A stretch of DNA of 63,969 bases, counting the filler, from Chrysochromulina tobinii (taxonomy: Eukaryota): the NCBI GenBank assembly GCA_001275005.1. It is 11 parts of 11 records of this genome, joined end to end, with 100 filler letters (N's around TTAATTAATTAA, not from the genome) between each part and the next. Parts side by side here need not be neighbours in the genome. Positions count along the whole stretch, not along the records: positions 1 to 16,941 come from JWZX01000523.1; positions 17,042 to 19,023 come from JWZX01000526.1; positions 19,124 to 21,150 come from JWZX01000527.1; positions 21,251 to 36,395 come from JWZX01000528.1; positions 36,496 to 40,430 come from JWZX01000529.1; positions 40,531 to 48,672 come from JWZX01000530.1; positions 48,773 to 52,074 come from JWZX01000531.1; positions 52,175 to 56,452 come from JWZX01000532.1; 3 more parts are not named here. One strand, given 5' to 3'. Below the pieces are notes generated by a model. That model did not search any database. It saw nothing but the letters and a program-made list of their open reading frames with translations, and was not told the DNA's origin. A program made the position numbers and the translations under genes. Of this stretch, positions 1,429-60,607 are shown one piece after another (position 1 is the first letter of the stretch; every line of letters starts with the position of its first letter).

Positions 1429-4400
1429 TTACTGCATCGTCCTCGGGTCCGTAGACCGGGGGTCGGCGGCCGCCATCGCCGCCCGCGGATCCGCGAGGGC
1501 GGCCTGTGCAGCCCCTGATGTGGCCGCGCCCGCGCCCGCGACGCTGCCATTGTCCTGCCCGGCCTTGAGGCCACCTGGCATGTGTGGTTGGAGTCTCTCA
1601 CGAAGCGCGCGCTGACGCATCTCGTCAGTGCGCTGGTCATTCCACTCCTCGTGCCTAATATGGATGACGACACAGCCAAGGGCTTGGAGCAGGCGTGCCT
1701 TGAGCTGCAGCGCGCCGAGCAGCTGGCCCGTGCTCGTGTAGTCCTTGGCCGCATGCAGCAGGATCGCAAACGTGGGTCCGCCCGTCACGTCGTGCGGTAC
1801 GAGGGCATCGATGACGTATGTGTTGAACACCTTGACGCGGTGGGGTAGCCCAAGTGCCTCGAGCGTAGCAGAGACCTCGAGGAGCGGCTGCGGCGCGCGC
1901 TCGCTCTGCACCTGTGGGGAGAGGGCGCCGTGGTGAGCATTTGCATGCAGAGGGATAGCAGAGAGCTCAAGGAGCGGCGGCGCGCGCTCGCAGCTCACCT
2001 GCAGCTGCACCTGCTGCCACGCGAGCTGCGCCTTTTGGCACAGGAGCGGCGGGAGCACCAGCCCGAGCTCTGGAGGCGCCTCGAGCTGCAGCATGAGCAT
2101 GCACTCGGCGATCCGGCATAGCTGGGCAGGTAACGCGACCCCAGAGGCGGCCTGGCTAATGGCTTGGAGCACAGCGATGGTGAGCCGATGCTCGTAGCAG
2201 CGCAGCGTGAGCAGTGACCACAGGCAGAGTGTGAGGGAGTGCAAGTCAGCATGCTGCGCCGTCTCCGCAATGTCGACGGGCAGCGTCCGGATGGCTTCGC
2301 GTGCCAGCTCTGCGCAGCCCAGCTGTACGAGTGACCAGAGAAGGGTGCCCGCCTCGGCGGGGTCGATGGCGAGGCCTGAGGCGCTCATCAATCGCATGAT
2401 GTCCGCGATCCCGAGCGGCGCCGGAGGCTCCACATGCAGCAGTGCCAAGCCGTGCACCAAGGCGACCGCAGAGTGAGGCAGCAGCTGCTGCACACTGTGG
2501 AGCCGCTCGATGAGGAGCGTGAGGATCGTGGAGGAGCGCCCGTGGTAATGGAGCGCGCCGAGCGCCTCGATGATGGTGCAGGCCTGCGCCTCGTGCAGCA
2601 CCTCGGGCTGCTCGAGCGTCCGAACCAGCTGGGACTCGAGGGCGTCGAGGAGCTTGGGCTCGTCGTACCTGCGCGAGATCAAGGGAGATCAATGGAGATC
2701 AATGGAGATCAAGGGAGATCAAGGGAGATCAAGGAGGAGCTCGGGCTCATCGTACCGCAGCCGCGCCAGACCATCGATCACCTCGGTCAGCATCTGAGGC
2801 ACGAGGACGCCGCCGCTCGTGCTCACGTGGCAGAGCTGCTCGCCGAGCGGCGCGAGCAGAGGCCACGGGCGGCGCATCGGGAGCGAGCCGAGGAGCCGAA
2901 GCGCATCACAGAGCGATTCGGTGGGCTCCGAGCGCGATCTCCGGTCGATCTCGCTGAGCAGCCTCTCTGTGAGGTCGCCTTGGAGCGAGCCGTTCAACTC
3001 GAAGAGGGCCCATGCGGTCTCGACGACCTGCATGCATTGAAGGAGGCACTCAGTGGTAATCAGTGGCATTCAGTGGCACTCAGAGGGCCCATGCGGTTTC
3101 GACGACCTGCGCGAGACGAAGCTGGTTGCGCGTGAGGCGCGCCTCGATCTGGCTGAGCATGCGCGGGAGGAGCGCCGTGTTGGGCCGCTTGAGGCGCGCG
3201 AGCACGTTCATCGTGTCGCACAGCTGCTCGGACGAGATCGAGTCGAGATCGCCGACCAGCAGCAGCAGCTGCTCGATCAACGAAGGGAGCATCATCAGTA
3301 ACGGCGAGTGTGGCGAGAGCTGCTGAAGCGAGGGCAGGTGTCGTACAAAGAGCCAGAGCGCGAGAGAGATCTGCTCGGGCGACAGGCTGCCAGCGAGAGA
3401 GCCTTCGCCTTCAGAGGCCAGCTCCCTCACGATATGCGCCCGAAGCTGCAGCAGTAACGGCTCGGCCAGCGGCATGCGCCGGCAGAGGAGGCGCGCCGTC
3501 GCGAGCAGCTCGGCGAACGAGAGCGGCGCGTGCTCGTGGGCGGCGAGCGCTTGAACGAGCCGCGGCAGCAGCCGCGCGCACGCGGCCGCGCGACCGAGGG
3601 GCACGATGGCGCGGATCAGTTGCGCGACGAGCTTTGCATGGAGCGAGGGCAGCTGTTTGTCGAGCGATCGCATCATGCGCGGGTACGCGGGCGCCTGGGC
3701 GAGGGGCCAAGGGGCCAAGGGTACAGACAGGCAATGAGAGGCAATGAGAGGCAATGAGAGGCAATGAGAGGCAATGAGAGGCCATCAGAGGCCATCAGAG
3801 GCCATCAGCGGTCATCAGAGGCAATCACCTGGGCGAGGCCGAGGGTACAGAACGCCCACAGGCAGTGCGCCGTGTCCGAGGCGGTGAGCGCGTGCAATCT
3901 CGACGCGATCTCCTCGAAGAAGGCCGTGAGGATACGCGTGTCGAGCACCTGAGGGACGAGGCGCCGTGGTGAGCGCGTGCATGCAGGGCCTGGTGAGCGC
4001 GTGCATGCAGGGGCAGGCCATCCGCGGCACTCGACGCACCGAGAGCTCGGCGAGCGCGCACAGGGCCTCGCGCAAGTAGCCGGAGTCGAGCGCGGGCAGA
4101 AAGTCGTGCAGCTTGGCGAGAATCTTGGCGAATTCGGGGCGCGACACGATCGAGGCTGCCCACGACTCTGGATCAGGGCACAGCTGCACCTGGCGCGCGA
4201 GCTTCGAGAGGCCGGTGCACAGCTGGAAGCCGGATACGGGCCGCTCGGTCAGCAGCTGCAGCAGCGCCGCCTCGTTGGTCGCACGCTCGATGTCGAGGCT
4301 GAGGGACTCGGCAAGGTGCGCAGCACGCTCGCGCGCGAGCACGAGCGCAGGCTGCATCGGCCTGCCCAGCTTCTCAAGCTCCGCGAGGCGGCTCGGCAGC

Positions 4401-5391
4401 TCGTTCGGCGGGATCTGTTCCACCTGAAGACGCATCGCCTGCTCGCATCCGTCGAGCAGCTGCTCCACGAGCACTGATTTGGCCTGATGAAGGAGGCAAT
4501 CGGAGGCCATCAGGGTGAGGACCGCCTGATGAGGGAGGCAATCAGTGGAAGCACTGATTTGGCGCTCACCTCGGCGCTCGTGAGCGTCTGCAAGGCCCAC
4601 GTGAGCTCGGCCGCGCGCTGCAGGCCGAGCGCGCGCGCCTCCATCCCCGACAGCGCCTGCGTGAGTGGCTCCACACTCGCGGCCGGAGGCGCGACCTGCG
4701 CCATCGCGAATGCGATCAGCAACGAAGCTGAGCCATGCGCGAGCATCGTCTCGCAATAGCCGGGCTCGTCGGCGCGCCCCTCGAGCTGCGCGCGCGTGCG
4801 CGAGCCCTCGATCGTGAACTCCTCCAGCCGCGCCGTGCTCACCGCACGCAGCAGCGGCTCCGCCTGCACGCCGAGCCCCTCGACGAGCGCGCGCGACAGC
4901 GTACCCAGGTGTGCGGCGTTTAAGTCGGCGAGGCGCGGCAGCACGATGGACGTGACCGCCTGGCCGATCGGGCCGCCAAGCTGCTTCAGCTTCGCGAGCG
5001 CTTGCGTGGCGAGCAGCAGCTGCGCGGAGGTCACGCGCCCATGCTGCGCGAGCAGCAGCAGCCGCTTGACGAGCCCTTGCAGCAGCGGACTCTCGGCCTG
5101 CTCGAGGCAGGAGAGGGCCCACAGGATCGAGGTGAGGCCCTTGACATCGGTAACAGTCGCGCCGCTCAGCATGCCTCCGAGCCGCATCATCATCTTGCCA
5201 AACCACGGCAGCTCCGCGAGCGCCTTGCGCTCCGAAGCGGGGAGTACCAACGCCGTGCGCGCGAGCGTATGCAGCCCGATGCTGAGCACGCCGACCGGCA
5301 AGCGTTCATAGTGGGCCTCGAGCAGCCGAGAGATCTCGTGCGCGCTTGTCTGCGTGAGGAAGACATCGTACAGGTGGTCGGCCGTCGCCAT
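1429..5391 (-). CDS. Helical-repeat protein with C-terminal RAP domain (FASTK/OPR-RAP-like RNA-binding protein), 7 exons, about 1132 aa
   Basis: Exons 5391-4570, 4483-4040, 3948-3829, 3694-3107, 3027-2756, 2668-1999, 1911-1429 join in frame. Repeated LWAL-type helices; RAP signature YVIDAL...LKARLLQALGCVVIHIRHEEW. Confidence 0.8.
1912..1998 (-). other. Intron (87 nt, in frame): downstream-exon echo plus acceptor cassette A
   Basis: GTGAGC...GCATGCAAATGCTCACCACGGCGCCCTCTCCCCACAG; the first ~45 nt resemble the start of the next exon. Confidence 0.85.
2669..2755 (-). other. Intron (87 nt): 22-nt downstream-exon echo plus TTGATCTCCC array
   Basis: GTACGATGAGCCCGAGCTCCTC vs exon GTACGACGAGCCCAAGCTCCTC; ends GCGCAG; removes in-frame stops. 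Confidence 0.88.
3028..3106 (-). other. Intron (79 nt): 25-nt downstream-exon echo plus decamer array
   Basis: GTCGTCGAAACCGCATGGGCCCTCT vs exon GTCGTCGAGACCGCATGGGCCCTCT; ends TGCATGCAG; restores frame. Confidence 0.9.
3695..3828 (-). other. Intron (134 nt): decamer array plus upstream-exon echo at the 3' end
   Basis: Starts GTGATTGCCTCTGATG; ends TCTGTACCCTTGGCC...CTCGCCCAG, copying the preceding exon end TCTGTACCCTCGGCCTCGCCCAG. Confidence 0.88.
3949..4039 (-). other. Intron (91 nt) ending in a variant of cassette A
   Basis: GTGCGT...GCATGCACGCGCTCACCACGGCGCCTCGTCCCTCAG; restores frame ELS|VLD. Confidence 0.85.
4484..4569 (-). other. Intron (86 nt, or 80 nt with a GC donor at 4563) with two stacked CATCAG acceptors
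   Basis: GTGAGC, then 14-nt echo GCCAAATCAGTGCT; acceptors CTCCCTCATCAG and CTCCTTCATCAG. Confidence 0.82.
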
Positions 5392-9600: not shown

Positions 9601-11487
9601 TCCGGCGAGCACGCGCCGCCTTGCTGGCCTTGCGGCGCCAGATGGTGCACAGCTTCCTCGCGTGCCGATTTGCGGCGGCGAAGGTGTGCGCCGTCTTCGT
9701 CGTCTGGCGGGGCCAGGTGGTGCAGGCCGCCCTGAAGCAGCGAGGCGCGGCGGCGTTTGTTGAAGGGAGGGTGCGTCGGGCGCTCAACACGTGGCAAGCG
9801 AGTGCGGAGCGGGTGGGAGCCGGAGTCACCATACGGCGCTGTCGTGCGCTCCTCGCGGCAAGTGGCTTGAAAGAGCGAGCTCGCACGCTGCTCACAGGCT
9901 TCCGACGCTGGGTGTCCCACGACGAGGCCGAGAGCGCGCTGCGGAAGGCGAGCGCCTGGATGACGAAGCACGAGCTCCACAGAGCCTTCGTGGCGTGGCG
10001 GTGGGCGCATCTCGACTTGGCGCTACAGAGCACGCGCGCACGTGCGGCGGCGCATCGGTTCGGCCAGTCGACGCTCGCACGGGGCTGGAACACGTGGCAA
10101 GCCGTCGCCTTCTCCGTGGCGATCGTGCACATGAAGGTGCGCAAGTTACTCCGCAACGTCCTCCACCAGCACAGCTGGCGTGCCTTTCACAGCCTCGTGA
10201 CCCACGCGGAGCACCGTCGTCAGCTCCGTCTGGGGGCCTGCGCGTTGCAACGGCATGCGCCTCGGCGCGCCATGATGACGTGGCGAGACCATGCCGAGGC
10301 ACGGCTCGTCCAATCGGCGCTGCTGCATCGCGCCCTCGCGTGGATGGTCGCATGTCCATCGGTGCGGCGCTCGTGGCGCCTGTGGACCCAAAGGGCTGTC
10401 TTGGACGCAGCCGAGCTCGACGCGACTCATGCGGCGATGGAGAGAGTCATCAGGCGGCTGCGCCATCGGCGCCTCGGGCGCGCACTCAATACGTGGGAGG
10501 CGCTGGCCGTGCTGCTGCTCAAGACGGCGCGCGCGTGCAGCGTGTGGGTGCACCGGCGCATCGCGACTGGATTCCACAGCTGGCTCGAGGCGTGGCTGCA
10601 GCAACAGGGGACGCTCGCGACGACACGCGCCGTGCTGCGCCAGTGGAGATCGAGGCGCCTCGCGCGTGGGTTTGACACGTGGCTGGGCTCGGTGCTCGAG
10701 CAGGTCGCACACCAAGCAACGCTCGCGACTACGATCCGCGTCGAGATTGCTAGGTGAGGGAAGGTCTCCGATGGCCTCCTATCGATTCTAAATGCCTCTG
10801 ATGACCTCTCCTTGCCTCTCTCATTGCCTCTCATTATCGTGCTTGCTAGGCGACGCCTTCACGTGCATCACGCTCTCGGTCTGTGGAAGGACTTCCGGCG
10901 CGACGCGCAGCGCGTGAAGGGGGAAGAGCGCCGCCGTATCGTCTCGCGGGAGGCGCGCCGGATCGTGTCGCAGGAGGCGGCGTCCTATGACGACCATGAT
11001 GAAGGACGCCATCAGGCTCGGCACGGGGCGTCCTATAACGACCATGATTTGCTCTCGTACGAGGATGAGGGCAGTCGCGTCCCCGGCTCGTCGCAGTCGG
11101 TGGAGCAGCGTGAGGCGCTGCAGGTAGCGGCCGCGTCCCGCTCTATTGCCTGTACTTGCCTCTAATGACCTCTGATTACCTCTAATTGCCTCTGATTGCC
11201 ACTGATTGCCTCCGAGCGCCGCTGCAGGTAGCGGCCGCGTCCCGCTGGCTTGCGGCTGCGGGTCTCGAGTCGGGACCCCCCATGTGGCCTGGGAGGATGT
11301 CACGCCCCACGACCCGGTTCCCGGCGCTGCACGGTAGCGCCGGCTACACGGCGGAGGCGTCGGGGAGCGAGAGGGAACGCCTCTCTTTCGAGTCGGACGC
11401 GGAGGCGGCGAGACGCTCCGCGCTCGTTCACATCTCGGACCTCCTCCTTGACTCTCATCAGTGGCTCGAGCCGGCAGACGCGCAGGT

Positions 11488-11519
<32 letters not shown>

Positions 11520-14500
11520 TGCAGGCCAAGGCGGCATCCCAGTGGCTCGCGGCGACAGGTGTCGAGGCCACGGCACGTGGCGCGTCGTATCGGTCTGTGG
11601 AAGGTGTCGAGGCCACGGCACGTGGCGCGTCGTATCGGCAGAAGGCGCCCGGGGAGGTGTCCATTCCACAACGGCCGGACGGCCCCATCCCCGTGATGGG
11701 CCCCGACGAGGCGCCCATCACGGCGCCGGCCTCGCCGCAACTGCAGCGCTCTCCCGGGTTCACGCCCGCGCCACGCTCGTCTCCGGCTGCCCGCGCCCGG
11801 CCGCACGCCGCGTACTCGCAGCAGATGCGCGTCGAACCCGAGTGGATCCGCTCACCTGTGAAGAGCTCGCCTGTGAAGAGCGCGCGCACGACGCTGCCGC
11901 TCGCGTACCCGGCGCTGCAAACCCTCACGGCGCTCGGCACGCCGGATGTACATCAGCTCGGCTCCGTCGAGTCGCTCCAGGTGACTGATGACCACTGATG
12001 ACCCTTGATGACCACTGATCGCCACTGATTTCCACTGATGACCTCTGATGACCACTGATCCCCTCCGTCGAGTCTCGTCAGTTCGCGGAGGCGGCCAACC
12101 TCGCGGTGGAGCAGCAGATCGCCCAGATCGCGCGGCTCGAGGCGCTCAGGATGGCGCTCGACCAGTGGGTGGCGGGCTGGATGGCGCAGCGCGAGTATGC
12201 ATGGGAGCTGCGTGCGACGGAGCGAGCGCTCTTCCACCGGCTGCACACCGAGTGCTGCCGTGCCTTTGACGCGTGGGTGCAGGCTGTGCAGTGGTGGCTC
12301 TTCGGGCTCCAGATAGGTCACCACGGCCGGCTTCGTGTGCTGCGTGAGGCTCTCCAAGCACTAGTGGCCGCGGCGGTCAACCGCCGCCAGCTGCTCGTGG
12401 CTCTGGGCCACTACCGGTATGGCGGATTCCACAGGGGATGGCACACGTGGCGTGCCCATGCGCAGGCCGCACGCGCCGCACTGGGCGCTCGTCTCAAGCG
12501 CGCCGTGCGCCATATGCTCAATCGACAGCTCGCGCGCGGCTGGCACGCGTGGGTCGCCTTCGCTGAGACGCGCGTGGCAGCCCGTGCCAAGGGCTACCGC
12601 GCCTTGGTCAGCCTGCTGCACCAAGCCCTCGCGCGCGCGCTGCGAGGGTGGGTCGCTCGTGTTGAGCAGGCCTCGGCTGCAAACGCGAAGCGGCTTCGCG
12701 CCATCGCCAGCCTCTTCAATCAAAAGCTCGCGCGCGCGCTGCGAGGGTGGGTCGCTCGTGTTGAGCAGGCCTCGGACGTGCAAACGCGGAAGCGGCTTCG
12801 CGCCATCGCCAGCCTCTTCAATCAAAAGCTCGCGCGCGCGCTGCGAGGGTGGGTCGCTCGTGTTGAGCAGGCCGCGGATGAGAAGGCCAAGCGGCTTCGC
12901 GCCATCGCCAGCCTCTTCAATCAAAAGCTCTCTCGCGCGCTGCGAGGGTGGGTCGCTCGTGTTGAGCAGGCCGCGGATGAGAAGGCCAAGCTCCAAACGA
13001 CCCTCGCCACCTTGCTTCATCAAGCCCTCGCGCGGACGCTGCGTGCATGGTGCGCCGAGACAGCGCAGTGGAAGCTTCCGAGAAGCTTCCTCAAAACGAG
13101 TGTGCATCGGTGGCGCGAGCGTGTGCTGTACACCGCCTTCGTTCACTGGTCCTCCTCGTGTGTGCACCAAGGTCGTGACGATGCGGCGATGCGGGCGGCG
13201 GGCGCGAGGTTTCTGCATGCGGCGGCCACGCGTGCTTGGAACACGTGGTGCGCATGGCATGCTGCGCGAGCTCGCCTGCTCGGGCTGGCACGTGCGCTGC
13301 TGCAGCAGGGGCTACGACGAGCCCTCAATACGTGGCAGGCCACCTCTTCGGACCTCGCACAGCGGCAGCAGCTCATGACCTCGGCGCTGCGCAAGATGCA
13401 GAAGAGAGAGCTCTGCCAGGGGTGGCTGGCGTGGGCGGCAAGCGCGCCGGCGGCGCGCCGGTGGAGGCTGATGGAGTGCTCGGTACGTCGCCTACACCAT
13501 CGTGATCTCTATCGGGGCTGGCTGGCGTTGGAAGCCTCTTCGAAGCAACGGCGGCTGCAGCAACGGTCGCTCGCGGCATGGCGAGGGAGTGCGCTCTGGG
13601 CGGCTCTGCAGGCATGGCGCCTGCTGGCCGGGGAGTCGACCGCCGCGGCGGCCCACGCTGCCTGGCTGATGGACGCCTCCCCGGAGGCTCTCCGACGGAT
13701 GCGAATCGTGATGGATTCGGTCGCGCGTCGGTTACGCCGGCGTGTGATGCATGCGTGGTCGGCGTGGTCAGCGCCATCGGGCCTTCGCCGGCGCAGCGCC
13801 AAGACGGGCGTTCGTCGGGCTGTCTGGTACCTCCTCTCGCCCTCTGACCGAGCAGCATGGCCCAAAATTTGGACCGACTTTTTTTGGGTGGAGCCACACT
13901 TGGCGGGACCTGCGCGAGTGGCTGACCAGCCTCCAGCTGTACGATCGTCCGACCTTCGTGGTGCCCAAGTCGCACGCGGGCCTGGTGAGCGCGCTGCAGC
14001 AGGGGCACCTCTACGAGCACCTCATCTACCGAATCAGCCGGCCGCACGAGCGCCTCCGGCGCGCCGTCGCGGGCGCCGACGCGACCACGACGCACATCTA
14101 CGCGTGGGCACGCTCGCACTCGCGCGTCGGGCTGAGGGGAGGCCCTCCGCTCGAGCGTCCCACCAACCAACAGCGCGACGAGGGCGATGGCTGGCGCCAT
14201 CTGCTGCGCGCCTTTTTCGCGTCCGAGTTGGTTCACAGCGCCCTCGGAGAGGAGGCAGGTGTGAAGCTCGGTCTTGTCGGCGCGGCGCTCGGCCGCGCGG
14301 GAGCCAATGACTTGCTCGACCACCTGCGCGTCCTGTGCGCGCTCCGGGCCGTGAGTGAGATGCACGAGCCCTCCTTTTGGGTCCCCTTTGTGGCGTCCAT
14401 CAGCCGGGCGTCGTGCCGGGCAGGCGAAGGCGCACCCGCGTACGAGCGTGAGGAGCCACGGCTGACGCCCAAGCATCCACTCGATGACTACTCCGAATGC

Positions 14501-21459: not shown

Positions 21460-24400
21460 ATGGCGGACTGGCTCAGAGGCGTCGTCGCCGACAAGGTGCT
21501 TCACAAAGTCCTCGGCAAATTCGTCTCCGGCATCGACAAGGACGCTCTCGACCTGGACCTGGGCATGGGAGACATCGCGCTGCACTCTCTGGCGCTCAAT
21601 CTTGAGACGTTTGAGGCGCTCGACCTGCCCTTCCATGTCGCGGGCGGTACGCTCGGCCAGGTGCGGGTCAAGGTGCCGTGGAGAAACATCACCAACGAGC
21701 CCACGAAGATTGTCATCGACCGTGTCTACTTGCTGCTTTCGCCCAAGGACGCGAGCCCGGTCTCGGCAGACGCTCGCGAGGCGGCGGCGGCGGCGGCGAA
21801 GCGCGAGTTTCTTGAGGGGTGGGAGGCGCAGCAGGAGCGCAAGAGGGAGCAAAAGCAAGGCTTCGGCGCTTACGTGGGCGAGCAGGTCGAAAAGCTCGTT
21901 CGCAGCATCCTGCAGAAGCTGCAGGTCTCGATTACGAACGTCCACGTGCGCATACAGCAGGGCGTGGGCGCTGGAGGGGTGGCCGCGGGAGTTTCCGTAC
22001 GCTCGATCCAAGTGACCGACATGGCGCTCGCCGACGCAGGCAGCGCGCGCCATAGTAGCGACACGCACCTGGCCAGCATGCTCGCCCAACTGGTGCGCAA
22101 GTCGGTCCGTATCGAAGGTCTCGCAGTCTACCTCTCGGGCAGCGCATCGGGCGGCGCATCGGGCGGCGCGTCGGGCGGCGCGACGGGCGGCGCGTCGCAC
22201 ACAGACCGCGCGGCGTGGGAGCGGCTGATGGTGCCCATGCTCGAGGCGAGGACCACGCTCCCAGATCACATCTTGCCGCCGCTCGACGTGAAGCTCGAGG
22301 TGGAGTTCAACCAAGCTGATGACCTCTGATGACCTCTGATGACCTCTGATGACCTCTGATGACCTCTGATGACCTCTGATGACCTCTGATGACCTCTGAT
22401 GGCCTCCCTCATCAGGTGGAGTTCGACCCAGCGGGTTCGCTCGACCCGGTGCGTCGTCCATGGCCGAAGCTCGCGCTGCGGGTGGAGGTCGAGGGCACGC
22501 TGGCGGTGCGCATGCGACGTGCGCAGCTTGGCTGGCTGCTCGAGCTCGTCGAGACCATCGCGCGCATGGAGCGTCGCCATCGCTTCCTCCGCTGCAGACG
22601 ACCAGTGGTGCCGCCGCGAGCGAGCAATGCGGCGGCGTGGTGGGCGTACGCGGTGCGCGCGGTCATCTCGAAACGCTCTGATGACCTCTGATGACCTCTG
22701 ATGACCTCTGATGACCTGTGATGACCTCTGATGACCTCTGATGACCTCTGATGACCTCTGATGACCTCTGATGACCTCTGATGACCTCCGATGGCCTCCC
22801 TCATCAGGTGCGCGCGGTCATCTCGAATGCTCGTGAGGATAGCACCGCGGTCACCTGGTATGAGCTGACGCGCCGTCGTGAGCAGCGCCTCGCGTACGTG
22901 CGCGCGTACGGCGCCTACTGGCAAAAGGGCTCCGGCGGCGGCCGGGCGGCGGCGCTCGAGGCGCTCGAGTCCAAGATGAGCCTCGAGCTATGCATGCGCT
23001 ACCGCGAGCTCACGCGGGTCGTGGGGGCGAGCTTGCCTGGGCGCTGGTGGGAGGCGCCGTCGTGGGCGCGAGCGGGCGCCGAGGAGGCGTCGTCGTGGGC
23101 GCTCTTGCTCCCGCCGCTCACGGTGGCCAGTGGCGCGGGTGCGGGCGCGCCACCACCGGAGAAGAAGGGCGGCTTTGACTGGTTCGGACTGTTCAAGCCG
23201 ATTGAGGACGAGGAGGGTGCGGATGGCGGTGGCGCGCGCGGCGCGGGGGCAGCTCAGGGAACTCTGAGCAGCGCCGCCGCTTCGAGCGTTGCTTCGAGCG
23301 GCGCCACTGGCGGCGGCTCGGCGAGATACAATCTCGGAGATGGCGGCGGCTCGGCGGCCCTTGACGACGCGTTGCGCCGTCAGGTGCGCGCGCGCTATAG
23401 CCTGGGCGAGCGCGCTGAGCTGCCCGAGACGGCGCTCCAGAAGCTGCTCGATGAGATCATCGAGGGCGAAGCGCTGGCAGTGGCCGACCTCGATGGGAAG
23501 CCTCTCGCCGCCTTTGCAGACTATGTCCAGACCGAGGTGGCGGCGAGCCTCGGCGCCCTCTCGGCGACGCTGCTCGCGAGCTCCACGAGTGTGCTCGCGG
23601 TGGCCGAGATTGTATCTCCGAAGGTGAGCCTCAAGCAGCGCACTTACCGCAAGGGGCTCGGGCTGCAGGCGCGCGTGGGCGCATTACGGCTCATCGACCG
23701 GCTCACGCCCTGTGCGCCGCTAGCGTGCGCGCTCACGGGCGAGCGGCGCGGAGGCCAAGACTGGCTGGTCTTGAGCCTCGACACGGAGCCTCTGCATTCG
23801 GATGCAGCGATGCACTTACAGGTGGCCATGCAACCGCTGATTACGTCCCTCATCACGTGTGCTCCAGCATGCAACCGCCGCATGCAAGTGCTCACCCCGG
23901 CGCCCTCCTCCCCACAGGTGGCCATGCAACCGCTGCATGCGACCCTCAACCCGCGACTGCTCGCCGCGTGCGGTGCGTGGTTCCAGGTGCCCCCCTCCCA
24001 GTGGTCCGCCGCCATCGAGCTCGAAAAGGTGACGCGCGGCCTGCTGGTCAATCTCGTGGGCGCGATACGGGAGATTGCCATGCGCACCTGGCGCAATCGG
24101 CCGGTGCACCTGGGCGTGTTCATCAGCACGCTGACCGTCTTCTGGGTACAGCCGCCCCCTCTTCGAGCCGATGCGAGCCCTTCTTCTCTGACGAAGTTGA
24201 CGAGGCCGACGAGGCCGACGAAGCCGCGGTCGGACGCGCTCGCGCTGCATGGGCTGGAATTGCACTGCGAGGGCATCTTGCTCTCTTCGGAGGAGGCGGT
24301 TCGGTCCGACGCGGACACCGTGCCGAAGAGATGGAACGACGACGCCGATGCCGGCCTTGTGGGGGGGGCGGCTCCCGTCCACTCGGAACAGGCGTTTGGC

Positions 24401-27400
24401 CTCTCGCTAAGTGGGCTGCGCCTGAGCTTGCTCCCGGCGGCGCAATGCGTGGCATGGCTGGCGGACCCGGTCGGCGCGGTGGCGTGCGCGACGCCGCTGA
24501 CTCATCCGCTCAATGCACAGCTCACGCTGGCGGTGCTGCTCCAACCTATGGGCGTGGAGGTGCCGTGGGTTCGTGCGCAACTCGCGATCGATCCGGTGCG
24601 GTTGCGAGTGCACGAGGGGTCCCTCGCCGCTCTGACGACGCTCGCGGTGGGCAGCGGCCAAGCCCTTGATCCTGCTGGCGAGGGCGGTATGATGTTGCCG
24701 GGCTCTGAGGACGAGACGCCCAACGCGCGCGCGGATGAGCGCGGGCTGGGCGCCGTCGGGGAGACGCCCATGGGTTGGTTCTCAATCCAGCGTAGCCAGG
24801 AGGTGCAGGGGCGCGTGGATGCGCAGCTGCTGGGCGACTGCCACGTGTCACTCGAGCTCGGCTACCTCGTGTACGAGATGCAGCAGCGCGAAGGCGAGAG
24901 CTCGATCGCGAAGATCAAGCTCAAGGACTATGAGGTGCGGGGTGGGCCGACGCCCGAGTCCTTCCAACTCTGCTCGACTTTCCAAGCCTTAGGGGTGTTC
25001 AGCTGCGAGACGTACACGCTGGTGGCCGAGTCGCGCTCGCTCTCGACGCGCTTCCAGTCGGCGTGCGCTGCGATGCAAGCTCTCTCGCGGGCCGAGGCGC
25101 CGGTCGTGAAGAAGAAGAAGAAGAAGAAGCCCCGCGCCGCCGATGCTCTCGGCTTCATGGCCGCGGAGCGCCAGAACCGGCTTGTGCTCGACGCGCGTAT
25201 CGGCGGCTTGTTTGTCGAGCTGCTGCCCGACAGCGTGGGCGGTGGCGCGGCGCGCTCGAGCTCGGCAGCGCTCGTCTCGTGTGCGCTTCGTGAGCTGCGC
25301 GCGCACCTCGTGCTTCGGAAGCGCGATGTGCGCTGCGCTGTGCAACTAGAGTCTGCGGACTTGCAGATCGCCGTGCGCGAGCCTCAGCTCGTCTCGACGC
25401 CAGCACACCGGCCTCCGACCTCGATCCTCGTGCCACTCATCTACATCGTGCCCTCGGCGGCGGCGGTGGCAGCGCAGAGGCGAGGTGACGCCGGCATGGA
25501 GGGCGTGCTGATGTCCTCTGATGTCCTCCGATGTCCTCTGATATCCTTTGTTGCCCTCTTGAGTGCCTCCATCATCAGGCGACACCGACGCCGAAGGCGC
25601 GGTCCAGCTCGACCTACTGCTTGCGACCGAGGGCTCGCCAGAGTACCCGTCGGTGGCCGCGCAGCTCAAGCTCACGGCTCAGCTCGGAGGGTTGCGAGTG
25701 CACCTGGCGGCCGACTCGCTCTCGGCTGTAGGCGAGCTGATCGTGCGAAGCCGAGGGCTCATCGACCGGGCAGCGGCGGCGGTGGCGCGCTCGGCCGAGT
25801 CGCCGCGCACGCCCAAGCCCGCGCCCTCGGTGGCCGCGGCGCTGGGCGCCGCGTCGGGTGCTTCGACCGAGCCGCGGGCGTCGGCTCCAGCTGTGGCCTC
25901 TGGGCTCTTGGACGAGAAGCCGTTGAGGAGCCGGGACGACGCCCGGGACGACGCCTCGCTCGCAGCGCCCGCAGCGGCGGACGCCCGGGACGACGCCTCC
26001 GCCGCGGCCCACGCTGCGAGCGCCGTGGCGAGCGCCAAGCCCGTCCTGGCGATCGAGGCCTACGTAGGGTACTTGTACGTGGTGCTCCATGAAGAGCCCC
26101 CAGCGCACATTGCGGGGCTTGGGCCGATGGGCGCCGCGTTGGGCGCCGCCGTCGCCGGCCTGGCTGACCTGAAGCTCGAGCGGCTCGAAGCGACGCTGCT
26201 GCTCGAGCTCGACACGATGCAGATCGACGCGCACGTGCATGGCCTCGGGCTGACGGTGCGCGATGGCCTGGGTAAGGCGCCGCTGGTGGTGATCAGCACG
26301 CTGCATAAAGGCGTCCGGGCCGCCGGCGAGGCTGCCAATCCGTCGCCGCCGCCCCGAGAGGTGAGTCTCACCTTGGCCTCGCTCGCCGACCTCTCGGATA
26401 CCGCCGAGCACCGTGACGGGCGCTGTGCCGAGCACCGACTGGACCGCATGGCGAGCGCCGTGTCGAGCGCCTCCTCACGGCAAGGGAGCGAGCTCGCGGC
26501 GAGATCGACGCGCTCGCTGCAGCGCCAAGAGAGCATCGCCAGTGCGCAGAGCGAGGTGGGCGCGGACGTGCCGACAGTCACCTTCTCCCTCGCGGGGGTG
26601 GCGCCCGGTGATGAGCCAGTCGATGATGCGTACGGATATGAGGACGGGGGGGCGGAGGACGTGGAGGAGCTCTCTCTCCTTGAGAACGTTGGCGAAGCTT
26701 CGGAGCTGCGCGGAGATGCGTCCGAGCTGCGCGGAGATGCGTCCGAGCTGCGCGGAGATGCGTCCAAGCACAAGCTGCTCACGTTTGCGATGAGCCTGTG
26801 GGACGAGAAGAGCGAGCGCCATCCCGGGTACGACTCGGAGATCTCGCTCGAGCTCGCGCCTGATTGCCTCCCTCATTGCATGCTGATTGCCTCCCTCATC
26901 AGGTACGACTCGGAGATCTCGCTCGAGCTCGCGCCCACGCGTATCTTTGGTCCGTTGCCCGTGGTGCGCCGGCTGCAACTCTGCTTCATGAAGGTCCTCG
27001 ACGCATTGACCAAAGGGCTCCTTGACAGGCTCGGTGAGCAGGCGGCGGTGGCCGCATCGGCGCTGGCGGCCGAGGGGTTGCGTCAGGTGGCCGCGGAGCA
27101 AAAGGGGTCCGGCGCCAAGCTCCGCATCATGGCGCACGGCCCACTCATCATCCTGCCGTCGGCGACGGTGCCCGGCACAGCGCTCGTCGTGCGAATGGCC
27201 GACATCCTCTTCACGAACGCCTCCGACGGCGCGGTCCACCTCGAGCGCGCCCGCGCCGCCTCGGCCTCGGGCCTCGGGCCTCGGGCCTCGGGCCGGCCAG
27301 CAGCGGCCTTCGAGCGGCTGCGCGTCTCCCTCGAGAAGACGTCCATCTTCGTCGCGTCGTCGTTGAGCGATCTCGAGCGCCATCTCGACGAGGAGATCGC

Positions 27401-39695: not shown

Positions 39696-39738
<43 letters not shown>

Positions 39739-40530: not shown

Positions 40531-43168
40531 GGCCGTGGAGGGATGGCGCCCGGGACGGCGCTCGGATGGCATGCCTCGAGCGGGCGAGGAGGGATGGCGC
40601 CCGGTACGGCGCTTTGGGCGCGCTTCCACATAGGGCTCGGTTTCCACGCGGGTGAGGCGCCGTCCCGGTAAGAGAGCTCGGGCGGCATCTGTGAGGGCCA
40701 ATCGGGCTCCGCACGTCCGCGAGCGCCGTCGCGGGCGCCGCGCCGGCCGCGGCCGCCGCCTGATGGCGAGATTGAATCTCCGAGCGAGATTTCATCTCCG
40801 AGCGAGATTGCATCTCGGTCAAAGGGCGAGTCGTCGGCGCACTCGCTTTGTCTGCTGCTACCCACTGCTACTGCCGCTGCCACTGGGGGCGGGCCCCACC
40901 CACCCCCCCACCCACCGCCCATCCCTCCACCGCCCATCCCGATCTCGTCGAACGAGATCGCGCCGCTGCTCTCGAGGTCGGGCCGCACGAGCTCGTCCTC
41001 GTCGTCCAACGGCTCAAACGGCTCCTCCTCCGCCGCCGACTCCGCGAGCTCATCGAGCTCGCGATCTCCCGCGAAGCCGGCCGTTTGACGAAGCCGACCA
41101 AACTCGCGCCAAAGGCTCACGAGCCACTCCTCCTTGCTCGCGTGCTGCGCCACGAAGCTGCGTTGCTCTTGGTTCAAGCCCATGCCGCCGCCCGCGACGA
41201 GCGCCGTATCGAGCGGCTGCGAGCCCGCGCCGCCGCCGTCGTCAGCCATCGCCATCGCCATCGCGTCGAACTTGGAGAGATCGACCTCAAACTTGAGCGG
41301 GAGCGCGTAGAGCACGGCGCGCGCCATCGACTCAGTCAGGTTGGCGAGGCCACCGAGCCGGAGGAGGTCATGCAGATGCATCGCGACGATGCGCTGGCAC
41401 GGGTAGCCCACGATCAGCGGTCATCAGCGGTCATCAAGGGTCATCAAGGGTCATCAAGGGTCATTACCTGGCACGGGTAGCCCACGATCGTCAGGATCGG
41501 ACTCGCCTCGAGCGTCGTAGCGAGTCGCGGATGGCAGCCGGCGCCGACCATGGACTTACGATGCATCCGATGCGCGAGCGGCGCCTGCGGCACGAGCGCG
41601 CGCCACCTCATATAGTCCGCCTCGCACGTGTGCCGCACGACCCCAGCGCTCGCCTCGAAAGAGTCAAGGCGAGCGCGCCTCTCGAGCAGCAGCAGCTGCG
41701 GCTTGGCCATGTGCCGAAACTCACTTCGACGACGACGGCACTCAAGGAGCACCAGCTGCTCCAAGAGCCGCGGCTTGAAGCGCAGCTCCGCCGCGGCAAG
41801 CTGCGCCTCGATACGCCGCCACGCGAGCCGCATGACGCCGTAGATGAGCCAATAATTACGGATCCAATCAGCCGCCGCGCGCGCGACCCTCAGCTGTTGG
41901 CGTGCCCTCTGACCGCGAGCCACCCAACAGATGAGGGCCGCCGCTTCGTCTCGTAGACGGTCCGCGTGGGAGTAGTAGACCTCGCACGTGTGCGAGTCCG
42001 TCGCGCTGGAGCTCGAGGCGCCGTTTGGGGCGCTCGACACGGCGAGTGCGCTCGGCACGGCGCTCGGCGGCGCGCTCCCGCGCAGACCCGGCGTCTGCAT
42101 GAAGGGCGACGCGTGCGACGCATTCGCCGCGTTGTTGGCCTCGAGTTTCGTCGTACGATGTGCCGAGTGTGAAGGTAGGGAGTGTGAAGGTAGGGAGTGT
42201 GAAGGTAGGGAGTGTGAAGGTACGGAGTGTGAAGGTACGGAGTGCCTCGGTAGCGTCGTCTCCGCCGCCGCCGCCTCCACCGCCGCCGCCTCCGCCGCCG
42301 CCGTCGCCGCCGCCTCCGCCGCCGCCGCCGCTGCGGGGCTGACCCTTGACACCGACACGGCGCCTCGGAAGATTAGCGCCTGCGATGGGAACTGCGTGTT
42401 TGCTTCCCATTGCGCCTTGGTCGCCTTCGCCTTCAGAACCCATGCTTGACGATCCGCCTCGGCTGTACCGGTAGCCGCACGCGCCCCCTCCTCCGCCTCC
42501 TCCGCCTTCACCTCCTTGGCCTCTGCATCGGCGTCGCGTTGGGTCTTGTCCTTGGCGACTGACGGGGCCGTCGCCTCCAGCAGCTCGGCTTCCCGCCGTT
42601 CGGCTTCCCGCCGCTCCGCCTCCGACCGTTGCGCTTCCCGCCGCTCCGCCTCCAGCCGCTCCAACGCCAGCCGCAGCCGTTCCACAGCCGCCTGGCGCTC
42701 CGCCTCTGCCAAGGCCACCTCTGCCATTGTCGGCGGCGGTGGCGGCGGCGGCGGTTCGAGCGGCGTTGAGGGTACCGACTGTGGGTGATCGAGCTCCTTT
42801 GGAACGAAGCCCAATGGCCGCCGCTCTGGTGCAGGCTGGGACTGCTGAAGGGCCTCAACCAATTGATGAGCACGTCGAATCTCTCGCTGGATTGCAAACA
42901 GCTCGTCCTCGTAGGGCAGCTTGGCCGCGTCCACCTCGCAAAAGCGGCACCATCGCTGCCAAACAGCAGCGAGCGACGTGCCAATGAATTTATCAATGAG
43001 ACGTTCAAGCAACCGGCTGTTGGCTTGGACGGCTCGAGATGATGGTGCCGCCGCGGCAATTGCTACTGTGTTGAGATCCTGCACGGCCTTGCGCAAGAAT
43101 GCATGCGCCTCCTCACTCGGGACCGGAGCCGCCTCACCATCTTTCAAGGTCGACTCGCTTGTGCCCAT
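40531..43168 (-). CDS. Hypothetical coiled-coil/low-complexity protein with IQ-like segments, 3'-truncated
   Basis: Exons 43168-41468 and 41393-40531 join in frame (GYPCQ|RIVAM). Confidence 0.6.
41394..41467 (-). other. Intron (74 nt): TTGATGACCC array plus perfect 22-nt upstream-exon echo
   Basis: GTAATGACCC...GATCGTGGGCTACCCGTGCCAG, identical to the preceding exon end. Confidence 0.9.
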
Positions 43169-46266: not shown

Positions 46267-46274
46267 TTTCCCAA

Positions 46275-46373
46275 TCAAGTCAAGTCAAGTCAAGTCAAGT
46301 CAAGTCAAGTCAAGTCAAGTCAAGTCAAGTCAAGTCAAGTCAAGTCAAGTCAAGTCAAGTCAAGTCAAGTCAA
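46275..46373. repeat. (TCAAG)n microsatellite, about 20 units
   Basis: Directly visible. Confidence 0.97.
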
Positions 46374-47882: not shown

Positions 47883-47897
47883 TAACCCGCGGGTTGG

Positions 47898-48161
47898 GTG
47901 TTGTTGGTGGGTTTGGATGGTTGTGAGGTTCGTCTGTGCGGTCCGTGTGCCTTTGTGCGATGTGCCTCCGCGTGTCCCGTGTGTGTCCTGTGTGTGTCCC
48001 GGCTCCCCCCGGTGAATGTTTACCGGTGTAAAGACACCGGGGGGAGCCGGGAACACACACGGGACACACACGGGACACGGGACACGCGGGCGCACAAAGG
48101 CACACGGACCACGCAGACGAAGACCTCACAACCATCCAAACCCACCATGCACCAACAACAC
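47898..48161. repeat. Long imperfect palindrome, arms ~120 nt
   Basis: 47898-48014 is the reverse complement of 48035-48161 with small indels. Confidence 0.9.
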
Positions 48162-48240
48162 ACATCCCGCACGTCAGCGAGACGACCGAAGCCGCGGCCG
48201 ACTCAACAGCCACAGGCCCGGAGCCGACCGCTCCCCGCGG

Positions 48241-52961: not shown

Positions 52962-53530
52962 GGATGACGGGTGCAAGACTACACCATCATCGATAATCTT
53001 TGTCGATGACGGTCTTAGACTCAAACCGTCATCGACACACGGTGTCGATGACAGGTGCAGACCGAAACCGTCATCGACGAAACTCGTCGATGACAGTGTG
53101 GCTCAAATACCGTCATCGACGAATTCGTCGATGACGGTTTTCAACTGACACTGTCATCGACATTAACGTCGATGACGGTGTGGCTCAAATACCGTCATCG
53201 ACAAATTGTCGATGACGGTTTTCAACTGACTCCGTCATCGACATTAACGTCGATGACGGTGTGGCTCAAATACCGTCATCGACGACAAAGTCGATGACGG
53301 TGTCAGTTGGAGACCGTCATCGACGAAAAAGTCGATGACGGTCTTCTCTGAAGACCGTCATCGACAAAACGTCGATGACGGTATTTGAGCCACACCGTCA
53401 TCGAGCTTTTAGTCGATGACGGTTTCCAGTGAAGACCGTCATCGAGAAATCGTGTCGATGACGGTCTTAAGTGAAGACCGTCATCGACAAAACGCGTCGA
53501 TGACGGTGTTCTTCACACACCGTCATCGAC
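52962..53530. repeat. Array of alternately oriented 12-mers ACCGTCATCGAC / GTCGATGACGGT, period ~41 nt, ~14 units
   Basis: Directly visible; spacers alternate between 5-7 nt and a fixed 11 nt. Confidence 0.95.
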
Positions 53531-54016
53531 GATGCAGAAAAGACCCTTCGCCGTCCCGGCTCCCCCCGGTGTCTTTTTACCGGAGTAATCGGTTGCGCTT
53601 GTTAGAAAGTTGTGTTTGTTTCAACTAATTAGCTTCTGTCCCTTCTGAAGAGAGCAGCTCATGTACTAGGCTCAACACGTTCACGCGTCCAGTTAAATAT
53701 TGCTATCGCGGCAAGACGCACAGCCACCGGTCCCGTGGAGACACACCGTGGGAGGCGCGGACAGGCACTGCAAGGGAGCTAACACACACGCACAGGGGGC
53801 GGGGGTGTCAGGGGGAGAAGAGCACGAGTCGTGCGGATTATCGTTACGGGACGTACATTCACAACGCACCACCAACGCTTGACTAGGTGCTTGCTTGCTT
53901 GCTTGCTTAGGTGTGACACTTGACTTTAAGAGCGTTGAATGCATGCACATAGCACAGTGTGTGTGCTCAGGGAATTACCATTTTAGTCTCGTGTTGCTTT
54001 TCTGCAGTCTCTGCAA

Positions 54017-58653: not shown

Positions 58654-58964
58654 GGTTTCCGAAAGGCAACGGGGGTCAGTACAGTACTGCCACGAACACC
58701 GCGCGCGCGCGCCGCGCATACTAATAAGTCCCGTGTGTGTCCCGGCTCCCCCCTGTGTCTTTACCGGCAAGTAACGTATATAACGCGATACCGGTACGTA
58801 CCGGTACAGTCTGTTTCGCACGAGGCGTACACACGACAGTTACACAACTTTCCCAAATCAAGATATGTCATGAGGTGACGTTAGATTCGCCATCTCTTCT
58901 CTAGTTCTCTTTGACTCCGTCGTCCGCGACCGGACCGGAGGGCAGTCGGCTCATGCCCTTATGC

Positions 58965-60411
58965 CTAATTAGGGATGCCCCATTCGGCGCCGAACCGTCG
59001 AGCGACATCTTCCATGGGCAGTCGACCCACCCCCAACGCCCCCCCCTCCGGATTGCGATGATCCACTCGCACGCCCGTTCGGGAGACGAAACCTGCCGCC
59101 CGATAGGCCCCGCGGAGGGCGACGCGCCGTGCACGCGCCGTCGCGGCCACCTGACGAGATGGTGGGCAAGGCCGCTCGGCGGCAGCACGCAGCTCACGGG
59201 GCCACTGGAGTTGGGCTCGGCCCCAGCGTTCAATGTACGCATGGAGGCCGTCATCGTCGTCATCGGGCGTGCAGTCGCCGCCGTGGCCGTCGCCGCCGTC
59301 ATTGCCCTCGCCGCCGCCGACGCCGCCGCCCTCGTCCTCGTCGTCGCAACCCTCCTCCCAGTGCTGCATGCAATAAAAGGGACTGCCAAATTAGGGGCAC
59401 GTGCCATATTAGGGACAGGGGACGACACGTGTCGAAGGCAAGGGACGGGACGGGACGGGTTAAGGGATAGGATGGGGATGGGGATGGTGGAAGGGGGGAG
59501 GGTGTGGTGAGGTGAGAGGTGCCTCTCGTAGCTTACTCGACGCCGACCAGCCCCGCATTCTGCCACATGGCCTCATTGATGGCCGGATCGTGGTCGATCA
59601 GAGTGTACGCGAACCAGTCGCGTCCCCATCGCCAGTCGAGCCCGAGCCCTGATGAGGGAGGTAATCAGAGGCAATCAGAGTCAATCAGAGGCAATAAGAA
59701 CCCGAGCCCTTCGGTCAGCGCACAGGCCTAAGGCAAATAGAGGCAATTAGAGGCAATTGGAGGCAAATAGAGGCAATCAGAGGCAATAAGAGGCAATTAG
59801 AGGCGATTAGAGGCACTCCGAGGCACTCAAAGGCCATCAGTGGAAGGTGCGAAAGTGCCAGTACCTTCGGTCAGCGCGCAGGCGCAGAGTAGCCGCATCC
59901 GGCGAGGCATCCAACCGCATGCCCACAACTGGCGCATCGAGGCATCCACCAGAGGAGCCCCCGTACGACCGACACACCTGCCATCGGGCGCAATCACAAG
60001 GCATTCAGAGGCGCGCTCAGAGGCACTCAGAGGCACACTATTATGGGTTGCCTAATATGGGCAGTTGCCTCATATGGACTCGGTCCCAGCACAGCCCACT
60101 CCTCGTACCAGGCAGCAAATGTCTCCAAAGCCTCCACCGATGGGTTGCCTAATATGGTTAGTTGCCTCATATGGCAAAAACCATCAAGTGGAGCGACGAC
60201 GGGCTCTGCTTGACGAAGCTCGGCGTTGCCTAATAAGGATGGTTGCCTCATATGGCAACAGCCATCAAGTGGAGCGACGACGGGCTCTGCTTGACGAAGC
60301 TCGGCGAGCAGCCGCCAGCACAGATGCGACCAATCTCGCCAGAGGAGATCGCGACGTCGCACGCCGAGGCGAGCGGCCGTGCGTGGGGAGATGAGGCCGA
60401 ATCGCAGGTAC
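58965..60411 (-). CDS. DNA photolyase/cryptochrome FAD-binding domain, 5'-truncated
   Basis: Exons 60411-60109, 59977-59865, 59648-59537, 59382-58965 give YLRFGLISPR, LLWRDW, FAAWCVGRTGAPLVDASMRQL, GWMPRRMR, LDWRWGRDWF..LIDHD..IN..MWQ, GVDPF, YIERW. Confidence 0.88.
59383..59536 (-). other. Photolyase intron (154 nt) ending CCTAATATGGCAC...CCTAATTTGGCAG
   Basis: GTAAGC donor; restores GVD-PFY. Confidence 0.85.
59649..59864 (-). other. Photolyase intron (216 nt) with an internal copy of the spliced junction
   Basis: GTACTG...CTCCCTCATCAG; restores TEGLGLDW. Confidence 0.88.
59978..60108 (-). other. Photolyase intron (131 nt) with degenerate decamers
   Basis: GTACGA...ATGGCAG; restores FAAWCVGRTG. 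Confidence 0.85.
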
Positions 60412-60607
60412 CTGATGAGGGACGCAATCAGAGGTCATCAGGGAGGCGAGCGGCCGTGCGTGGGGAGATGAGGCCGAATCGCAGGTACCTGATGAGGGAC
60501 GCAATCAGAGGTCATCAGGGAGGCGAGCGGCCGTGCGTGGGGAGATGAGGCCGAACCGCAGGTACCTGATGAGGGACGCAATCAGAGGCCATCAGTGGCC
60601 ATCAGTG
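60412..60607 (-). other. Photolyase intron, 3' part: three tandem acceptors at a 77-nt period
   Basis: GCGTCCCTCATCAG|GTACCTGCG at 60566, 60489 and 60412. Confidence 0.85.

What the first reader, a model, noticed from the sequence alone, without database searches (positions are those of the whole stretch)
2669..60607. Strand-specific 10-nt arrays that look like tandem branch points
SEEN: the arrays are fairly uniform within an intron but differ between introns: CTGATGACCT (22316, 22678), CTGATGGCCT (28250), CTGATTGCGT (29745, 33789), TTGATTACCA (28962), CTGATGGCCA (36082), TTGATCTCCC (2669 intron), TTGATGACCC (41394 intron). All keep a YTGAT core and a 10-nt period (one 11-nt variant near 28321-28380). 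All lie on the sense strand in plus and minus genes, and I saw none outside introns. KNOWN: YTRAY is the branch-point consensus. INFERENCE: the arrays give redundant branch sites. The conserved period despite sequence drift suggests reiterative templated synthesis or a helical-phase constraint rather than ordinary slippage.
Basis: partly seen in the sequence, partly recalled or inferred. Interest (0 to 1): 0.75.

Follow-up and report, generated by a model that had tools for sequence, protein, structure and literature searches.

The report
Self-copying intron ends with decamer arrays
In a freshwater haptophyte alga, many introns consist of a short copy of the neighbouring exon plus a piece shared with other introns, often a 10-base repeat that resembles the splicing branch signal, which suggests that new introns likely arise when DNA repair copies the end of an existing intron into a gene.

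Summary
The arrays are real: 66 two-unit matches against 0 by chance, all on the strand of their acceptor tails; 61 lie in introns supported by reading frame or RNA. The alga is Chrysochromulina parva or a very close relative. The copy supplies the donor, the acceptor or both. A filler shared across the genome (the array, or a second non-tandem family) supplies the rest. Junctions show microhomology (21 of 60 against 5.9%). Best reading: introns seed new introns by microhomology template switching, and slippage then expands the units. The last unit sits at a plausible branch position (-17); redundant branching is untested. A fixed RNA template or helical constraint is not needed. Known introners have 3-9 nt duplications. 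This scan earlier noted a repeat-flanked intron family in the same genome (e1-2577349). No empty site was available, so gain itself is inferred.

The parts
1912..1998 (-). Intron: ~43-nt diverged copy of next exon + family-2 filler (GCATGC..GCTCACCACGGCGCC..CCCCACAG type), no array
   Evidence: RNA joint in X11, X14
2669..2755 (-). Type A intron: GT + 22-nt copy of next exon, 6 x YTGATCTCCC, ends CGCAG
   Evidence: RNA joint in 4 of 4 runs
3028..3106 (-). Type A intron: 25-nt exon copy, degenerate array, GCATGCAG tail
   Evidence: frame restoration; no RNA joint seen
3695..3828 (-). Type B intron: GTG + array (CTGAT then CTCAT units) + copy of previous exon end supplying AG
   Evidence: frame restoration; no RNA joint seen
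3949..4039 (-). Intron with two family-2 fillers, weak exon copy
   Evidence: RNA joint in X11, X14
4484..4569 (-). Nested intron with two unit+TCATCAG tails; the exon copy starts a few bases inside
   Evidence: RNA joint in X12-X14
10754..10849 (+). Type B-like intron, degenerate array, short copy of previous exon end
   Evidence: RNA joint in X11, X14
11124..11227 (+). Type C intron: 27-nt duplication holding AG|GT supplies both splice sites, array as filler
   Evidence: RNA joint in X11, X12, X14, 27 letters fit either side
11981..12081 (+). Type B intron: GTG + 7 units + 19-nt copy of previous exon end
   Evidence: frame restoration; no RNA joint, one RNA contig starts inside it
21460..36395 (+). 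VPS13-like host gene, 15 modelled introns, cut by contig end
22300..22415 (+). Type A intron: 17-nt exon copy, 9 units, CCCTCATCAG tail
22653..22807 (+). Type A intron: perfect 20-nt exon copy, 12 units, CCCTCATCAG tail
23822..23917 (+). Type A intron: 18-nt perfect exon copy, unit remnant, family-2 filler
   Evidence: RNA contigs begin aligning at 23914
25485..25578 (+). Older type A intron, decayed copy and array
26828..26902 (+). Type A intron: perfect 33-nt exon copy, two single units, tail
   Evidence: in frame and stop-free if kept
28162..28401 (+). Nested type A intron, includes the 11-nt variant run
28946..29146 (+). Nested intron: exon copy + TTGATTACCA array, then 41-nt exon copy + family-2 filler
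29486..29626 (+). Intron with two family-2 fillers
29739..29930 (+). Nested intron, CTGATTGCGT arrays with GCATGCAG tails
31038..31120 (+). Type A intron, 20-nt exon copy + family-2 filler
31331..31417 (+). Type A intron, 22-nt exon copy + family-2 filler
31598..31675 (+). Type A intron, 24-nt exon copy with indel + family-2 filler
33482..33634 (+). Intron with two family-2 fillers
   Evidence: RNA contigs X11, X12 hold 139 letters between 33480 and 33867, the length expected if this and the next intron are removed
33774..33867 (+). Type A intron: 14-17-nt exon copy, 7 x CTGATTGCGT, GCATGCAG tail
36015..36238 (+). Older nested type A intron, CTGATGGCCA array
41394..41467 (-). Type B intron: GTA + units + perfect 22-nt copy of previous exon end
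   Evidence: frame restoration; no RNA laid here
59651..59864 (-). Probable nested array intron with TCATCAG tail
   Evidence: read from sequence; not frame- or RNA-tested
59976..60607 (-). Complex region with decayed array and three tandem copies of [units + tail + exon start] at the contig end; may be partly misassembled
   Evidence: untested

Best explanation
These arrays are the shared filler of a large family of introns that likely arose by microhomology-guided copying of existing intron ends into exons, which would leave the 12-55-base duplication of exon sequence seen around the filler. Inferred steps: a broken or stalled strand in an exon anneals by 2-6 bases to a decamer unit (or family-2 start) of another intron and copies part of it. 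It then re-anneals upstream of where it left, so the target is duplicated. The insertion survives only if GT..AG can be placed so that exactly one copy plus the filler is spliced out. Type A takes GT from the copy and branch+AG from the filler; type B takes GT and branch from the filler and AG from the copy; type C takes both sites from the copy. Because each unit holds a YTRAT motif, any captured piece of one unit or more would bring a branch site. Three in-register units put a stop in every frame, which would expose unspliced RNA to decay. Most type A donors end in AG|GT, which would favour the switch back at a target GT. Arrays then grow and shrink by slippage, and repeated events give nested introns. 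Shown: arrays, strand, splicing of 8 introns, duplications, microhomology, shared tails. Inferred: gain, donor, enzyme, branch use, decay.
For: Edge copies in 16 of 25 window introns at score >=10 against 0.8% of 600 mismatched pairs. Flanking repeats at 83 of 148 array blocks against 1.8% of 399 shuffled flanks. After dropping 19 overlapping loci and duplicates: 14 type A, 11 type B, 8 type C, 21 nested, 18 unplaced; the 51 non-nested copies are 12-55 nt, median 24. Microhomology >=3 nt at 11 of 32 left and 10 of 28 right junctions against 5.9% simulated (19 of 58 without two nested rows), so at both ends. The CCCTCATCAG tail is followed by GT in 70 of 102 cases. In the DNA run 33 and 39 contigs from other loci share the tail plus GT or GTG and then diverge, with no common continuation. 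A non-tandem filler has the same layout in 14 of 30 acceptors, so the process is not tied to repeat synthesis. 13 of 14 introns with three or more units have stops in all three frames, against 0 of 7 without units. MM-BIR template switches use 2-5 bp microhomology, and rice insertions form tandem duplications with ectopic filler (PMC7407515, passages).
Against: No empty site was seen: no genome is held, and the two overlapping pairs aligned showed no presence/absence of an intron. 65 of 148 blocks have no detectable repeat. 18 of 51 non-nested repeats allow no GT/GC-AG placement; they may lie inside larger introns, which was not checked. About two thirds of junctions show under 3 nt of microhomology. 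Donors are only weakly local (same dominant unit in 32 of 158 within-locus pairs against 12.8% between loci; pairs not independent). Loci were chosen by a three-unit pattern and many come from the same or near-identical strains, so counts are not independent samples of species.
Confidence: 0.5

Rival explanations
1. RNA-templated insertion: a LINE-type or other reverse transcriptase copies excised intron RNA, or a retroelement's tandem-repeat tail, at staggered nicks (target-primed reverse transcription), giving variable target duplications.
For: Variable duplication length and a fixed 3' end at AG with a variable, microhomologous 5' junction in type A fit target-primed insertion (hallmarks from own knowledge). 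The last unit differs in a regular way from upstream units, as for a block copied from a 3' end.
Against: Type B has the fixed end on the 5' side and type C has no fixed end, with arrays on the same strand in all three, which one element's tail cannot give. There is no shared sequence beyond the AG (loose ends, agreement 0.41-0.44). The median 24-nt duplication is long for most LINEs (recalled). No poly(A) was seen in the 25 window introns.
Confidence: 0.2
2. The introns are old, and exon edges were later duplicated into them by local tandem duplication (exon-edge minisatellites), the arrays being ordinary intronic minisatellites.
For: Nested units [array + tail + exon start] do repeat in tandem at 29870-29951 and 60410-60607 and in 21 of 72 de-duplicated outside repeats. 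Arrays behave as VNTRs.
Against: In simple type A introns the very first base of the intron is the first base of the exon copy, so no older donor site is left. The same tails recur at unrelated loci, which local duplication cannot give.
Confidence: 0.12
3. A conventional introner: a non-autonomous DNA transposon with terminal inverted repeats CTGATGA/TCATCAG that carries the acceptor and takes GT from its target duplication.
For: The common tail is the reverse complement of the unit's first 7 bases (seen in sequence). [quoted passage not shown]
Against: Reported introner TSDs are 3-9 nt and characteristic of a class; here they are 12-55 nt and variable. Left ends fall at many phases of the unit. 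Types B and C and family 2 lack the inverted repeat. No stable fold in 5 of 6 introns.
Confidence: 0.1
4. One reading: a telomerase-like enzyme reiterates a 10-nt RNA template at breaks, or helical or nucleosome phasing holds the period at 10.
For: Spacing is 10 nt in 987 core pairs against 9 at 9, 47 at 11 and 29 at 12 in the loci (biased by the search pattern). A different decamer with a CTGAC core and flanking duplication occurs in L152. Microhomology priming would also fit.
Against: There are many unit variants (commonest 358 of 1,890 units) with local homogenisation and whole-unit length differences. A locally amplified 11-mer occurs. The non-tandem filler has the same footprint, and tails travel with arrays.
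Confidence: 0.08

Closest known systems
Introners / introner-like elements (Gozashti et al. 2022, PMC9860276; Roy et al., bioRxiv 10.1101/2020.10.14.339549)
   Same: Many related introns across a genome; one splice site carried by the insert and the other co-opted from the duplicated target. A Chrysochromulina MAG introner family is shown in PMC9860276 Fig. 2C (passage).
   Different: Reported TSDs are 3-9 nt (4 nt for that Chrysochromulina family) and characteristic of a class. Here they are 12-55 nt and variable, with microhomology, a tandem-repeat body and three layouts from the same filler.
Intron gain by tandem genomic duplication of an AGGT-bearing exon segment (review PMC3443670, passages)
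   Same: Type C introns take both splice sites from a duplicated AG|GT segment (11124-11227, RNA-confirmed).
   Different: The duplication alone is too short to be an intron here; a filler from other introns supplies length and branch motif. Types A and B need only one site from the copy.
[quoted passage not shown]
   Same: Direct repeats flank an inserted filler.
   Different: Here the filler belongs to genome-wide families that match other introns, so the process would feed on itself, and the repeats are long.
Alt-EJ / MM-BIR templated insertions and rice tandem duplications with ectopic filler (PMC7407515, passages)
   Same: 2-5 bp microhomology, duplication plus templated filler.
   Different: The passages read do not describe it as a family-forming source of introns.
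10-11 bp tandem repeats in Emiliania huxleyi introns (Read et al. 2013; recalled, paper not held)
   Same: Haptophyte, intronic, about 10-nt period, if recalled rightly.
   Different: Could not be checked; I do not know whether strand bias, branch motif or duplications were reported in it or in its supplement.

Membership tests
Spliceosomal (U2-type) intron | GT..AG ends, removed from RNA | tested here: met
   6 RNA joints with GT..AG or CT..AC ends; 2 more by piece length; frame restoration in four genes
Spliceosomal (U2-type) intron | Branch A used in lariat formation | not testable with these tools
   Position only: -17 in 97 of 162 acceptors
Introner (DNA-transposon type) | Family of similar introns at unrelated loci | tested here: met
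   153 stretches found, about 4,600 estimated; shared tails
Introner (DNA-transposon type) | Short TSD of class-characteristic length (3-9 nt), or none | tested here: not met
   12-55 nt, median 24, n=51; literature values
Introner (DNA-transposon type) | Terminal inverted repeats at defined ends | tested here: inconclusive
   7-nt inverted match in the common type A tail only; left end at variable phase; no stable fold in 5 of 6
Introner (any type) | Recent gain shown by empty orthologous sites | tested here: inconclusive
   Two overlapping pairs aligned, both filled; no genome held
Non-LTR retroposon insertion | Variable TSD | tested here: met
Non-LTR retroposon insertion | One fixed 3' end or tail shared by all copies; parent element | tested here: not met
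   Fixed end is 3' in type A, 5' in type B, absent in type C; no common continuation. The parent element itself could not be searched genome-wide.
AGGT tandem-duplication intron | Both splice sites from the duplicated segment, no foreign filler | tested here: not met
   Both sites from the copy in 8 of 51 non-nested cases, always with array filler by selection of the loci
Telomerase-type reiterated repeat | Single template unit and template RNA | tested here: inconclusive
   Many unit variants; no Rfam hit in the window; genome not searchable

The most novel reading that the evidence does not exclude
A transposase-free, self-propagating intron: a tandem array in which every 10-nt unit is at once a landing site for microhomology repair, a branch point and an all-frame stop, so that host repair keeps copying intron ends into exons and has built a large share of this alga's introns. 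The array would be kept because it breeds, not because the host needs spare branch points.
Probability: 0.35. Interest if true: 0.88.

Novelty: new variant of a known kind. Interest (0 to 1): 0.72.

Why it matters
How new spliceosomal introns arise is a long-standing open question. Large-scale gain is so far credited mostly to transposons with short fixed target duplications, and repair-based gain rests on few cases (5 in the table of PMC3443670). A cultured alga in which most introns of several genes still carry a readable duplication, donor family and junction microhomology makes the repair route testable by comparing strains. The arrays also break short-read assemblies (DNA contigs end in them) and are stop-free on the antisense strand, where 90 database proteins match their translation, likely false gene calls.

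Tried and rejected
No whole genome was held, so no genome-wide scan and no search for an RT, transposase or template RNA was possible. Viral contigs: 0 hits for the three-unit pattern and 1 for the family-2 motif (L152, which looks like host-type intron DNA). Prokaryote genomes: 8 stretches, not examined. Rfam: nothing in the window. RNA folding: 5 of 6 introns no more stable than shuffles, 2669-2755 z -2.3, so a hairpin role for the inverted tail is not supported. A first antisense control for splice placement was uninformative (56 sense against 28 antisense of 83, because units start with CT) and was replaced by strand concordance (71 of 73 multi-array loci) and a codon test (noisy, 101 of 136; refined, 119 of 134 overall and 97 of 100 confident). 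An exact-match microhomology script was too strict and crashed in its control; replaced. All-against-all search of the loci gave few cross-sample overlaps; two were aligned and neither showed an empty site. The antisense translation search named no organism. Summed depth over arrays in the DNA run reached 351,381 against about 115 for single-copy contigs; the tool warns this is no copy number, so it is a hint only. Assembly artefact was considered: contigs of run X1 cross several copy-array and tail-exon junctions without differences (X1 may be the source sample), and one type B intron is identical in L086 and L106; unit counts and the triple repeat at 60410-60607 remain uncertain. Literature: ten searches listed no paper on these arrays or duplications. 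Term look-ups in PMC4580454, PMC12480563, PMC8775090, PMC13518057, PMC2784329, PMC12130899 and PMC11282704 (passages only) showed none. Read et al. 2013 was not held, the C. parva genome paper was not found, and no supplements were read; these could bear on novelty.
Full report
Setting. The window is 11 contigs joined by N spacers. It is GC-rich eukaryotic DNA. Its MsrA protein is identical at 218 of 221 residues to a Chrysochromulina parva protein in the same cluster, so the source is that haptophyte or a very close relative. No whole genome is held.

Observation. A two-unit pattern matches 66 times against 0 in 100 shuffles. All 66 lie on the sense strand of intervals treated as introns; 61 are in introns with frame or RNA support and 5 are in the untested minus-strand gene at 59651-60607. 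I modelled 25 introns in four genes. Removing 15 of them and one base at a G run (an indel the DNA run shows) opens 4,302 codons without a stop in a VPS13-like gene. Keeping any one of 9 of the 15 brings stops; the other 6 are in frame and stop-free, so frame alone does not prove them. The other three genes also open up. Two RNA contigs hold exactly the 139 letters expected between 33480 and 33867 if two more introns are removed. In 151 outside loci, arrays share a strand in 71 of 73 multi-array loci and lie on the coding strand in 97 of 100 confident cases, 119 of 134 overall. Exceptions exist: an array in a terminal-repeat element and an antisense array.

The introns are built from a copy of the adjacent exon edge and a filler. 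16 of 25 window introns score 10 or more for such a copy, against 0.8% of mismatched pairs; several copies are perfect (33 of 33 at 26828, 27 of 27 at 11124, 22 of 22 at 41394) and others are decayed, which suggests a range of ages. Outside, 83 of 148 array blocks have a flanking direct repeat against 1.8% of shuffled flanks. After dropping 19 overlapping loci and duplicates, 72 repeats remain: 14 type A (copy gives GT, filler ends in AG), 11 type B (filler starts GT, copy gives AG), 8 type C (copy holds AG|GT), 21 nested and 18 with no splice placement. The 51 non-nested copies are 12-55 nt long, median 24. The filler is shared across loci: the CCCTCATCAG tail is followed by GT in 70 of 102 cases, and other loci in the DNA run share the tail and GT and then diverge. 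A second, non-tandem filler occurs in 9 of the 25 window introns, has the same layout in 14 of 30 acceptors, and is sometimes preceded by array units. Junctions between copy and array show 3 or more bases of microhomology in 11 of 32 left and 10 of 28 right cases against 5.9% simulated; two right rows are nested artefacts, leaving 19 of 58.

The units. The last unit puts an A 17 bases from the intron end in 97 of 162 tailed acceptors, with 19 at 27 and 7 at 37. YTRAY as branch consensus is established knowledge; use of any unit is untested. 13 of 14 introns with three or more units have stops in all three frames, against 0 of 7 unit-free introns; this follows from a TGA core and a period not divisible by three. 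Unit identity decays with distance inside arrays, an 11-mer is locally amplified, and two copies of one locus differ by whole units, so slippage acts after insertion. The common tail is the reverse complement of the unit's first seven bases, but folding shows no special stability in 5 of 6 introns.

Mechanism. The most economical account is microhomology-guided template switching during repair or replication, copying an end of an existing intron and rejoining upstream, with selection keeping only insertions that splice out cleanly (confidence 0.5). It explains variable duplication length, microhomology at both ends, three layouts with the array always sense, two filler families and nesting. 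Template switches on 2-5 bp, and tandem duplications with ectopic filler, are described in PMC7407515 (passages). Against it: no empty site was seen, 65 of 148 blocks show no repeat, most junctions have under 3 nt of microhomology, and donors are only weakly local. RNA-templated insertion (0.2) fits type A but not B and C together. Old introns with later edge duplication (0.12) explain nested units but not introns that begin on the first base of the copy. A classical introner (0.1) fails on duplication length. A dedicated reiterating template or helical constraint (0.08) is not needed, though a different decamer with a CTGAC core in L152 and the recalled 10-11 bp repeats of Emiliania introns keep a constraint on period open.

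Comparison and novelty. It works like an introner in how splice sites are supplied, but reported introner duplications are 3-9 nt (PMC9860276 passages; bioRxiv 10.1101/2020.10.14.339549 parts 1-2 of 4). It joins features of tandem-duplication and break-repair intron gain (PMC3443670 passages). Ten searches listed nothing on these arrays, but Read et al. 2013 was not held and no supplements were read. It is unchecked; I had formed the duplication reading before seeing it, and it pointed me to the dinoflagellate paper. Verdict: real, a new variant of a known kind, interest 0.72.

Noticed in passing
window 44180-44224 and 46275-46373: Pure pentamer arrays (TCAAG x9, x20) just upstream of two minus-strand ORFs; on that strand they read as tandem TTGAC, itself a YTRAY. 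Outside modelled introns.
   Followed up: no
window 47306-47888: MITE-like element with 42-nt terminal inverted repeats, 88% complementary, and an interior of GATACA/TGTATC repeats at about 10-11 nt spacing in both orientations; intergenic, with a YTGAT core on one strand but a different unit.
   Followed up: partly
window 47882-48177, 53540-53575, 58730-58770: A long hairpin element whose arm motif (TCCCGGCTCCCCCC..TTTACCGG) recurs at three places; similar DNA lies in L014.
   Followed up: no
window 52950-53530: Array of palindromic GTCATCGAC/GTCGATGAC units between genes.
   Followed up: no
window 60050-60260; L045 1290-1360: A third filler family (CATAT-KAGGCAA type) with repeated exon copies inside complex introns.
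   Followed up: no
window 36496-40275 (-): 1,260-aa ORF with no Pfam match, gag-like in position and composition; retrotransposon fragments also at 20849-21148 (RT RNase H) and 60717-63746.
   Followed up: partly
window 54976-55127 and about 55359-55600: Two probable introns of an OSCA/RSN1-type channel gene with neither array nor family-2 motif, so not all introns here belong to these families.
   Followed up: no
window 31871 and 13879: One-base homopolymer indels in the assembly against DNA or RNA runs; each shifts a reading frame.
   Followed up: yes
L008 and L062: Related elements with repeated AAAACACA termini, an internal decamer array and different central segments.
   Followed up: partly
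L152 1370-1500: A different decamer (CTGACGAACC x4) between two copies of a ~35-nt segment, upstream of a family-2 acceptor, in a contig filed as viral.
   Followed up: partly
window 23822, 29486, 31331, 31598, 33482, 1912 (intron starts): Family-2 introns are often a multiple of three and stop-free in frame, so retention would add residues rather than truncate; numbers are small.
   Followed up: partly
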